IMG/VR virus record: IMGVR_UViG_2802429242_000009
Coordinates: 1 to 33,994 of that record
Reading direction: 5' to 3' (one strand)
Length of the DNA stretch: 33,994 bases
Source of the DNA: a virus
Lineage: Duplodnaviria > Heunggongvirae > Uroviricota > Caudoviricetes
Position numbers: made by a program. This document shows, in pieces, positions 15,001-18,000 of the stretch (the first letter of the stretch is position 1; each line of letters opens with the position of its first letter).

Positions 15001-18000
15001 TCCGTGCTGATGTTTCTGCTGGTCGTAAGCGCCTGCAAGTCGCCGCCACCTGTGCAAAGTCAACGACCGGAGCCAGCGGCATGGGCGATGGAGAAAGCCC
15101 AGGACTTACAGCAGATGCTGAACTCAATTATTACCGTCTCCGAAGTGGAATCGACAGGATAACCGCACAGGTTAACTACCTGCAGGAGTACATCAGGACG
15201 CAATGCCTTCGATGATAGCGATAATTTTACTCATCATCCTTCACATCTGGCTCTGTAGACAGGGTGGTACTCACTTCTGGAGCGAATCCAGATTAAACAT
15301 CTCATTGCTGATGCTTGAAGTTAAGCATCTGGCGCGCGGTAAGGGGCTGCGTTGAGATAAGAGCCAGTCATAACAAATACCAGGATTTAGCCTCGCATTT
15401 GCGGGGCTTTTTTACATCTGCAGTAAACCGCGCATCGCAGCGCGTAACAATCCCGAGTCTTTCAGAAAGCTGAGCCTGAGAACTGCCGTATATGGTGGCG
15501 ACCATCTCGGGGCGGCTTTTCTGTGCGAACAGGCTCATCTTTCTAAAAGGTAAGACGCTATGAATATCGTTCCACTAAATTACAAAGGCGAACCTATCCG
15601 CTTCAATACTGATGGCTGGATTAATGCCACTGATATTGCAAAACGTTTCGGGAAGCGTCTGGATCACTGGTTGTCCAACGCTGAAACTCTCGAATACGTT
15701 AGAGCTCTGGATGAGGTTTATTCAGGTGAACCATCGAAAATTCTACATACCCGTGATTCCGGGTATGTAAAAACAAGCAAGGCACGAAAGGACAGGGGCG
15801 GCGGAACATGGCTGCATCCAAAGTTATCAGTTGCCTTTGCAAGATGGTGCGATCCGAAATTCTCCGTATGGTGCGACCTGCACATTGATAGTCTGCTTCG
15901 CGGTGAACTGACTGAGCAGCAGAAATATGAGCAAGCATGTCGCATTCGCGATGACCGGAAATCAAAAGCCAGCAATGGGGCAAGAGAGATGGCTCGCTGG
16001 CGATGGGATAAGCCGGTTATTGAAGCAAATGTTGAGTACTGGCGCGAGCAACTGCAGTTGACTCTCGATATCGCGTGCTGATGGCAAACGCAAAACTGCG
16101 TTATCGGAAAAATCAAAGCATTACGAGAACTGAGCAACGGCTATCCATTACAAAGCCCATTTACGGGTGGGCTTGATAATGAAACCGGAATTTATTCTGG
16201 GCCACCAGTTAACGGCAGTACCACGAAACAACCCAAGCCAGTAAGTGGGGAAATAACACCGGCAGCCACTGAAAGATGAACCTCCTGCCTTATGGCAAAA
16301 AAGATTCTTTGTGGTGGCGGACTGATGGAAAGACATCCTAATTTCAGCCAAACATTGAAGGAGTTGTTATGTCAGCAGAAGGTTTCAATAACCCATCAAA
16401 ATTTCGGGATGAGTGGGATAGCAGCGTAAAGAGTAAGTGATGCCATCACAAAAGCCATTCCCTACAGAGTGGCTTTGATAATGGCTTATACCCTGCACGG
16501 GATAACTTAACTGATATCCCCACAAGCGGATAAAGAGGCTCTCAATGTCCGACATCTACATCATCAAACTGAATACGAACGACGGCGGCGAGTAAACGGG
16601 CAAGATGTCACGACGTCAGCCTGAGCTGGTTAATGGCTTTGTGCCGCTGGCGACCTAGACGGGAGTGGGGGGGGGGCGTACTTCGCTCCTGCTGATGTCA
16701 AGTGCGTGTAGTTCACGCCAATATCGGTAGGTGACGATAGAACTGTGGAATAGACATGGCATTATCCTGGACGTGTAAATGTTCAATCGGAAATGCCATG
16801 CTGGTCAGTTGGTTGCTTAGACCTTCTTATAAGAGATAGATCTTCCGAATGGTGGATATATAGAAGTTGAATCTTTAATTTCATAAGTGGCCACTACATT
16901 TCCCGCAGCGTCCAACTCACGGTAAAGGTATTCATCGGTATCCTGACCTTTTCGAGCTCCTTTCCAGTTAGAAGAGACAAGCTCCAGTGTATGGTCATCT
17001 GGAATGCCGATTTTCTGTTTGTATTCATCACTCATGTGAAATCCTTAAAGGTAATTTATGGCACTCACCGACAAACAAGAAATGTTCTGTCGCGAGTACC
17101 TCATCGATTTAAACGCCACGCAAGCGGCTATTCGGGCGGGGTACAGCGCAAAGACAGCTAACCGTACCGCATCCGAAAACCTGTCAAAACCTGACATCAA
17201 GTTAAGAATCGCCGAACTGAAAGCGCAACGCAATGATCTTGTTGGTATTAATGCAGAATATGTACTTAATCGCCTTCTTGAAATCGACCAGATGGATGTG
17301 CTCGACATTCTCCTGCAAAACGGTGAGTTAAAGCCCATTAAAGACTGGCCTAAAGTATGGCGCACAACGCTATCAGGAATGGATGTCGTGGAGATGGTAT
17401 CCGCAGATAGTTCCGCACTTCTGAAGAAAATCAAATGGCCAGATAAGGTCAAAAACCTCGAACTTCTTGGAAAGCATGTTTCCGTTCAGGCATTTAAAGA
17501 ACAAGCTTCTCATGAGCTAACAGGCAAAGACGGCGGCGCAATTCAGATTGAAACATCACCGATGAGCACTCTATTCGGAAAATGACCTCGATTAATCCTA
17601 TCTTTGAATCGTTCATTGAGGCGCATCGCTACAAAGTCGCCAAAGGCGGTCGAGGTAGCGGCAAATCATGGGCAATTGCGAGGCTGCTTGTTGAAGCGGC
17701 GCGTCGGCAGCCTGTGCGTATTCTCTGCGCTCGTGAACTGCAAAACAGTATCAGCGATTCGGTAATCCGGTTGCTTGAAGACACCATCGAGCGGGAAGGG
17801 TATTCGGCTGAGTTTGAAATTCAGCGTTCAATGATTCGTCATCTCGGAACAAATGCTGAGTTCATGTTCTACGGCATCAAAAACAACCCGACGAAGATTA
17901 AATCGCTCGAAGGCATTGATATCTGCTGGGTGGAAGAAGCGGAAGCGGTAACGAAGGAATCATGGGATATCCTGATACCAACCATCCGCAAGCCGTTTTC

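What the first reader, a model, noticed from the sequence alone, without database searches (positions are those of the whole stretch)
16667..16676. G10 homopolymeric tract
A run of ten G is unusual in enterobacterial phage DNA and is a classic slipped-strand mutational hotspot. It sits upstream of the divergent small gene 16817..17035, whose transcript would pass over it as poly-C, so its length could modulate expression or terminate replication or transcription. It could also be an assembly artefact.
Basis: seen in the sequence. Interest (0 to 1): 0.45.

Follow-up and report, generated by a model that had tools for sequence, protein, structure and literature searches.

The report
Slippery G-run inside a dead phage gene
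The run of ten G is real and changes length between related prophages, but it lies inside a small phage gene already killed by three stop codons, so it is most likely a harmless mutational scar rather than a switch.

Summary
The G10 run is at 16667-16676 exactly as reported. It is the only G or C run longer than 6 in the window, where about 0.01-0.03 would be expected by chance. The window is NCBI GCA_002966085.1 contig PTTC01000023.1. An independent Logan assembly of run SRR3410659 gives the same GT+G10, so it is not an assembler artefact.

The tract lies in the late operon of a P22-like prophage, between the lysis genes and terS. It sits inside a decayed copy (16545-~16725, + strand) of a small phage gene of family phrog_6581. 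That copy already has three in-frame stop codons, and the tract replaces the codons Glu-Trp-Leu.

In 32 relatives carrying the same pseudogene the site reads G5 (18), G6 (12), G9 (1) or GGGGAGG (1). G5 and G6 go with flanking SNP haplotypes, so short alleles are inherited stably. G9 and G10 are independent expansions.

No intact ORF, promoter, terminator, Rfam family or stable RNA fold involves the tract. It lies 140 nt downstream of the stop of the 72-aa minus-strand gene, not upstream of it.

Verdict: a real slippage-prone repeat with no evidence of function. Low interest.

The parts
16667..16676 (+). G10 homopolymer, preceded by GT. It stands where intact homologues have the codons GAG TGG CTG (Glu-Trp-Leu).
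16545..16725 (+). Pseudogene of a small phage protein of family phrog_6581. ATG at 16545; in-frame stops TAA 16593-16595, TAG 16656-16658 and TAG 16709-16711; the tract adds a frame disruption. Homology to intact genes fades after about 16725.
16755..16800 (.). Inverted repeat CATGGCATT-N28-AATGCCATG, between the pseudogene remnant and the stop of the 72-aa gene. Not terminator-like: large loop and no T run.
16817..17035 (-). 72-aa orphan gene, antisense to the late operon. Its stop codon is 140 nt from the tract. It belongs to a small family confined to Enterobacterales.
17058..17585 (+). Small terminase subunit (Terminase_2). The 5' ~380 nt belong to the same mobile module as the tract; the 3' end is recombinant.
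16445..17440 (.). Approximate extent of the ~1-kb module (pseudogene + 72-aa gene + 5' part of terS) shared at about 99-100% identity with prophages that have otherwise different lysis and head genes.

Best explanation
The G10 run is a non-functional, slippage-prone mononucleotide repeat that arose inside a dead gene.

The ancestral arrangement is still intact in locus L048: a small + strand gene of family phrog_6581, convergent with the 72-aa minus-strand gene, just upstream of terS. In the lineage of this window the phrog_6581 gene was inactivated by three nonsense codons. Its G-rich codons GGA GAG TGG lost the interrupting A and T and became a pure G run of about six.

Replication slippage then changed the run freely because nothing constrains it. 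It contracted to G5. It expanded to G9 in one lineage. In this lineage it expanded by six bases and carries a T near its 5' end, giving GT+G10.

Shown: the position of the tract, the pseudogene status, the length polymorphism and its link to haplotypes, and the absence of any ORF, promoter, terminator or structure. Inferred: slippage as the mechanism, the order of events, and neutrality. On the + strand the tract is simply read through as an untranslated part of the Q-antiterminated late transcript that runs from the lysis genes to the terminase genes. That last point rests on established lambdoid/P22 operon organisation.
For: The tract lies between Q (13215-13703), lysozyme and Rz upstream, and terS, terL, P22 portal and P22 coat downstream, all on the + strand.

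DNA of 16545-16725 is 75-87% identical to intact 67-72-aa genes in E. coli M10, 30EVA1 and 210205630 and in Enterobacter phage CobraSix. The intact protein hits phrog_6581 at E=6.8e-34. Differences among intact copies fall mostly at third codon positions, for example 2/1/15 and 7/5/22, so the + frame is the coding frame. The window copy reads MSDIYIIKLNTNDGGE*TGKMSRRQPELVNGFVPLAT*TG..[tract]..YFAPADVKCV*FTP. L048 has an intact copy directly convergent with a 92%-identical 72-aa gene.

Tract alleles in 32 relatives are G5 x18, G6 x12, G9 x1 and GGGGAGG x1. G5 and G6 co-segregate with SNPs at 16476, 16479 and 16608. G9 sits on the G5-type haplotype and the window on the G6-type haplotype.

No promoter or terminator lies at the site, there is no Rfam hit, and fold z-scores are -0.57 and -0.13. 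Minus-strand ORFs across the tract are not called as genes in any assembly. The same G10 appears in an independent assembly.
Against: Neutrality is inferred, not measured. A +6 change with a T is not a single simple slippage step, so the exact mutational path is uncertain. One possibility is G12 followed by G-to-T; another is a 6-nt insertion. The antisense RNA downstream of the 72-aa gene is C-rich (C/G 1.5-2.1), and the tract raises the C fraction from about 0.36 to about 0.41, so a small effect on Rho loading cannot be excluded. No read data were available to check heterogeneity within the culture.
Confidence: 0.8

Rival explanations
1. The tract is a phase-variable regulatory element. As poly-C in the 3' region of the 72-aa gene's transcript, its length would tune Rho-dependent termination or mRNA stability and so tune expression of that gene.
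For: The tract lies 140 nt downstream of the gene's stop and no intrinsic terminator lies between them. The antisense RNA there is C-rich and G-poor and is predicted to be unstructured. Tract length does vary among relatives.
Against: The C>G composition is present with the G6 allele too; the tract adds little. 30 of 32 relatives have only G5 or G6, which are too short to switch at useful rates, and these are inherited stably with their haplotype. The tract lies in the remnant of another gene rather than in a conserved UTR, and L048 lacks it altogether.
Confidence: 0.06
2. The length of the tract is a sequencing artefact, that is, a homopolymer miscall or a poly-G chemistry artefact, and the true allele is G6-like.
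For: GT+G10 was found only in this lineage, in one NCBI assembly and one Logan assembly that may come from the same reads. Homopolymers are error-prone on several platforms (general knowledge).
Against: Two different assembly pipelines give the identical tract, and the Logan contig runs through it without a break. The difference from G6 is +6 nt and includes a T, which is not the usual one-base homopolymer error. An independent genome has G9 at the same site.
Confidence: 0.08
3. The tract is a contingency repeat inside a small minus-strand ORF. In the window this is the 43-aa ORF 16655-16786. In G5 relatives a 55-aa ORF is annotated by RefSeq as WP_187767215.1. Tract length would switch the frame of this ORF.
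For: PGAP annotates the 55-aa antisense ORF in 2 of the G5 genomes. Tract length changes its frame and its end.
Against: The ORF is the in-register antisense of a gene whose + frame carries the codon-position signature of selection. It is unannotated in the other genomes. The window's versions are not called as genes in any assembly of the collection. In the window the ORF starts with TTG and ends 9 nt past the tract.
Confidence: 0.02

Closest known systems
Poly-G/poly-C contingency loci (simple-sequence-repeat phase variation) of Neisseria, Campylobacter, Haemophilus and Bordetella (e.g. PMC6321876, PMC5084427, PMC1891110)
   Same: A G/C mononucleotide run whose length differs between closely related genomes, most simply explained by slipped-strand mispairing.
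   Different: Those tracts lie within the 5' part of an intact ORF or in a promoter spacer, and they are kept long across strains. This one lies in a gene remnant that already has three stop codons, has no promoter nearby, and is only 5-6 bases long in 30 of 32 relatives.
phrog_6581 small phage proteins (intact in Enterobacter phage CobraSix, Erwinia phages 49/59, Cronobacter phage ENT47670, Hafnia phage Pocitis76 and several E. coli prophages)
   Same: Same position, the last gene between the lysis cassette and the terminase genes. Same sequence at 75-87% DNA identity, with the same start codon and ribosome-binding region.
   Different: The window copy is a pseudogene with three nonsense codons plus the tract. 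No function is known for the family.
Gene decay in resident prophages (pseudogenes that accumulate nonsense mutations and homopolymer indels)
   Same: A dispensable phage gene is degraded while the neighbouring genes stay intact. An independent decay of the same gene is seen in E. coli EC931 (TGG to TGA).
   Different: The run has grown to 9-10 bases, far longer than any other G/C run in this phage or in 148 kb of related loci.

Membership tests
SSR-mediated phase-variation (contingency) locus | The repeat lies inside an intact ORF or between the -35 and -10 elements of a promoter | tested here: not met
   No + strand ORF of 30 aa or more covers the tract. The ancestral frame has stops at 16593, 16656 and 16709. 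The scan found 0 promoter-like sites in 16000-17200.
SSR-mediated phase-variation (contingency) locus | Tract length differs among closely related strains | tested here: met
   G5 x18, G6 x12, G9 x1, GGGGAGG x1, and the window GT+G10.
SSR-mediated phase-variation (contingency) locus | A long tract (about 7 or more) is maintained across members | tested here: not met
   30 of 32 relatives have G5 or G6, and these co-segregate with flanking SNP haplotypes.
SSR-mediated phase-variation (contingency) locus | Length heterogeneity within a single culture, linked to an on/off phenotype | not testable with these tools
   No read-level data. The Logan contig passes through the tract unbroken, which is only weak evidence for one dominant length.
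phrog_6581 gene (as a pseudogene) | Sequence homology to family members | tested here: met
   75-87% DNA identity to intact copies. The intact relative hits phrog_6581 at E=6.8e-34. The window translation aligns residue for residue apart from the stops and the tract.
phrog_6581 gene (as a pseudogene) | Uninterrupted reading frame | tested here: not met
   Three nonsense codons plus the tract, so it is filed as a pseudogene and not as a gene.
phrog_6581 gene (as a pseudogene) | Conserved position between the lysis genes and the small terminase gene | tested here: met
   The intact copy in L048 is convergent with a 92%-identical 72-aa gene.
Intrinsic (Rho-independent) terminator | GC-rich hairpin followed by a U run | tested here: not met
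   No such site near the tract on either strand. Folding is no better than shuffles.
Canonical G-quadruplex motif | Four runs of 3 or more G separated by loops of 1-7 nt | tested here: not met
   A regex over 16601-16760 finds none. GGGAGT+G10 is one G short, and only a two-tetrad pattern fits.
Described RNA family (Rfam 15) | Covariance-model match | tested here: not met
   0 matches with E up to 1 in 15200-17200, both strands.

The most novel reading that the evidence does not exclude
The repeated destruction of this one small gene may not be neutral decay. It has three nonsense codons against only two missense changes, plus a slippery run, and it decayed independently in EC931. This could reflect selection against a late phage protein (phrog_6581) that is harmful or triggers a defence when carried in a prophage. 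The expanding C-run might then be starting to act as a tunable Rho-loading element for the antisense 72-aa gene.
Probability: 0.05. Interest if true: 0.4.

Novelty: new member of a known kind. Interest (0 to 1): 0.12.

Why it matters
It matters little for biology. It is a clean example of a homopolymer born from G-rich codons once a gene is dead, and then free to expand. It shows that an eye-catching G10 in a phage genome need not be regulatory.

The practical points are three:
- The 16545-16725 stretch should be annotated as a pseudogene.
- The 55-aa antisense ORF that RefSeq annotates across the G5 allele in some genomes is probably spurious.
- Tract length could serve as a fast-evolving marker for tracing this ~1-kb mobile module among E. 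coli prophages.

Tried and rejected
- Promoter and terminator scan of 16000-17200: no promoter. The only terminator-like hit is at 16281-16302, far from the tract.
- Rfam at permissive E-value: nothing.
- RNA folding of both strands around the tract: z = -0.57 and -0.13.
- G-quadruplex motif: not met.
- cos-site idea: the 8-mer GGCGACCT next to the tract resembles part of the lambda cohesive end (from memory). It lies in conserved coding sequence of the intact homologues (Leu-Ala-Thr) and this phage has P22-type headful packaging genes, so I rejected it as coincidence.
- Minus-strand ORFs across the tract: not called as genes anywhere.
- The 72-aa neighbour: no Pfam, PHROG, NCBIfam or PADLOC family and no PDB sequence match. 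It is not related to the YodC-family gene at the same position in L012. The AlphaFold model has pLDDT 84.6, with one helix and a four-stranded sheet. The best PDB fold match has E=0.023 and the top matches have TM-scores (query-normalised) of about 0.3-0.6, which is not informative.
- Pattern scan of one-genome-per-species contigs: no match.
- Phage GenBank records: none covers the tract; matches stop at 16520 or cover only terS.
- Literature searches for poly-G or homopolymeric tracts in lambdoid or E. coli prophages, and for the accession numbers: nothing relevant.

Full report
**Observation.** The window has ten consecutive G at 16667-16676, in the context TAGACGGGAGT-G10-CGTACTTCGC. It is the only G or C run longer than six in 33,994 nt. 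The next longest runs are G6 and C5. Expected numbers of runs of ten or more are 0.007-0.019 for G and 0.002-0.013 for C.

**Source of the window.** The window is identical to NCBI assembly GCA_002966085.1, contig PTTC01000023.1, and window and record coordinates coincide. A Logan contig assembled independently from run SRR3410659 carries the same GT+G10, with no mismatch over 4,121 nt, and runs through the tract without a break. I could not establish whether that run is the same isolate. Either way the tract is not produced by one assembler.

**Where it sits.** The window is a P22-like (Sf6/CUS-3-type) prophage:
- Q antiterminator 13215-13703
- lysozyme 14284-14781
- Rz 14766-15215
- KilA-N protein 15560-16081
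- small terminase 17058-17585 (Terminase_2)
- large terminase 17582-18997 (Terminase_3)
- P22 portal and P22 coat

All of these are on the + strand, so the tract lies in the stretch of the late operon between the lysis and packaging genes. By established lambdoid/P22 organisation this stretch is read through by Q-modified RNA polymerase. The only minus-strand gene nearby is a 72-aa ORF, 16817-17035. Its start is at 17035 and its stop at 16817, so the tract is 140 nt downstream (3') of it. It is not upstream, as the finding says.

**What the tract is embedded in.** Relatives at 75-87% DNA identity carry an intact 67-72-aa + strand gene at this position. These are E. coli M10, 30EVA1 and 210205630, Enterobacter phage CobraSix, and a metagenomic contig L048. 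An example product is MSDIYIIKLTTNDGGEHTGKMSRRQPELVNGFVPLATETGEWLYFAPADVKRVQFTPV....

- The protein belongs to phrog_6581, of unknown function (E=6.8e-34).
- tblastn finds it in 14 phage records down to 38% identity, usually as the last gene before the genome end.
- Differences among intact copies concentrate at third codon positions, for example 2/1/15 and 7/5/22, so the + frame is the selected one.

The window copy starts with the same ATG (16545). It has TAA at 16593 (TAC in relatives), TAG at 16656 (GAG) and TAG at 16709 (CAG). The tract stands where the intact genes have GAG TGG CTG. L048 shows the ancestral layout: an intact phrog_6581 gene convergent with a 92%-identical copy of the 72-aa gene. 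The tract is therefore inside a pseudogene.

**Comparison of tract length among relatives.** The pseudogene, the 72-aa gene and the first ~380 nt of terS form a ~1-kb module (about 16445-17440). It is found at about 99-100% identity in many E. coli prophages whose lysis and head genes otherwise differ. I read the site in 32 relatives:

| Source | Number |
|---|---|
| complete E. coli genomes | 16 |
| IMG/VR contigs | 3 |
| metagenome contigs | 2 |
| further NCBI assemblies | 4 |
| contigs carrying a 99% variant of the 72-aa protein | 7 |

The alleles after ...ACGGGA are:

| Allele | Count |
|---|---|
| G5 | 18 |
| G6 | 12 |
| G9 | 1 |
| GGGGAGG | 1 |

None has GT+G10. G5 and G6 co-segregate with SNPs at 16476, 16479 and 16608, so the short alleles are inherited stably. 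G9 (L029) lies on the G5-type haplotype, next to the GGGGAGG allele. The window lies on the G6-type haplotype and is nearest to strain TUM12357 (L001). Between about 16485 and 17280 the window differs from L001 only by the 6-nt tract change and two substitutions. The run has therefore changed length several times independently, and faster than the surrounding sequence changes. This is what slipped-strand mispairing predicts. In 148 kb of related loci, no other G/C run reaches seven.

**Tests for a function.**
- No promoter-like site in 16000-17200, and no terminator-like site near the tract.
- No Rfam match at E up to 1.
- Neither strand folds better than shuffled sequence: z = -0.57 and -0.13.
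- No canonical G-quadruplex motif.
- The only ORF of 30 aa or more across the tract is a TTG-initiated 43-aa minus-strand ORF that ends 9 nt past it. Neither it nor its ATG-started version is called as a gene in any assembly.
- RefSeq annotates a 55-aa antisense ORF across the G5 allele in two genomes. It is the in-register antisense of the former coding frame and is left unannotated in the other genomes, so it is probably spurious.
- The minus-strand RNA downstream of the 72-aa gene is C-rich (C/G 1.5-2.1 over about 200 nt). That would suit Rho loading, but it is nearly as C-rich with the G6 allele (1.2-1.9). The expansion is not needed for this property.
- The 72-aa protein is identical in all relatives read, whatever the tract length.

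**Most likely history (inferred).** GGA GAG TGG in a dead gene lost its A and T by substitution and became G6. Slippage then gave G5, G7 (later interrupted by A), G9, and in this lineage a +6 expansion with a T at the second position. The T may be a G-to-T change in a G12 run, or part of a 6-nt insertion. The window allele is in frame with G6, but that is irrelevant in a frame that already has stops.

**Verdict.** The regulatory interpretation has no support and rests on a wrong reading of the geometry. A pure assembly artefact is unlikely, though the exact length can only be settled with reads. The tract is a real but almost certainly functionless repeat in a pseudogene. It is an ordinary kind of thing, unusual only in its length for this group of phages.

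**Side observations.**
- The pseudogene has three nonsense changes but only two missense changes relative to intact homologues. This is more than random substitution would give, at roughly 4-5% nonsense among non-synonymous changes (from memory). EC931 shows an independent decay of the same gene. I did not follow this up.
- The 72-aa gene belongs to a small orphan family confined to Enterobacterales, with 26 clusters. Its model is confident (pLDDT 84.6) but has no informative fold match.

Noticed in passing
window 16593-16595, 16656-16658, 16709-16711: The phrog_6581 pseudogene carries three nonsense codons (TAC>TAA, GAG>TAG, CAG>TAG) but only two missense changes (T10N, R>C) relative to intact homologues. 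This is an apparent excess of nonsense hits. All 32 relatives of the module share it.
   Followed up: partly
L013 (E. coli EC931, NZ_CP049118.1) 1266-1480: Independent decay of the same small gene in another prophage: TGG>TGA at the Trp codon that the tract replaces here, plus many missense changes. It is unannotated in RefSeq.
   Followed up: partly
window 16817-17035 (-): A 72-aa orphan gene, antisense to the late operon and 22 nt from the terS start, so its promoter must lie inside terS. It is listed in 1,633 collection blocks with the identical sequence. Its homologues occur only in Enterobacterales (E. coli, Cronobacter, Yersinia). The AlphaFold model has pLDDT 84.6, with one helix and a four-stranded sheet, and no significant PDB match.
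   Followed up: partly
window about 17440-17480 (inside terS 17058-17585): Recombination junction inside the small terminase gene. The 5' part is about 99-100% identical to a module that elsewhere precedes a 540-aa large terminase and a Phage_portal_3 portal. The 3' part joins P22-type terL and portal. Only two contigs in the collection encode this exact chimeric TerS.
   Followed up: partly
window about 16445-16470: Left boundary of the shared module. The Logan contig of SRR3410659 ends at 16465. The segment to the left (16150-16520) matches the right-end region of HK544/HK97-like phages and 183 phage records, so it is probably repeated in the host genome.
   Followed up: partly
L011 1563-1730 and L024 363-530 (RefSeq WP_187767215.1): PGAP annotates a 55-aa minus-strand ORF across the G5 allele in two genomes. 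It is the in-register antisense of the dead phrog_6581 frame and is likely a spurious call.
   Followed up: partly
window 6389-6412: An A9 run followed by GGGGCGAATGCCCCC. Read on the minus strand this is a GC hairpin plus T9, directly after the stop of the cI-like repressor gene (6413-7063, Peptidase_S24 + HTH). It looks like a textbook intrinsic terminator.
   Followed up: no
window 16755-16763 / 16792-16800: A 9-bp inverted repeat, CATGGCATT / AATGCCATG, with a 28-nt loop, between the pseudogene remnant and the stop of the 72-aa gene. L048, which has the intact gene pair, has a different and longer hairpin flanked by A-rich runs at the equivalent place.
   Followed up: no
window 33419-33426 and 33590-33597: Two T8 runs near the right end of the window, inside or near the ORF that starts at 32885.
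   Followed up: no
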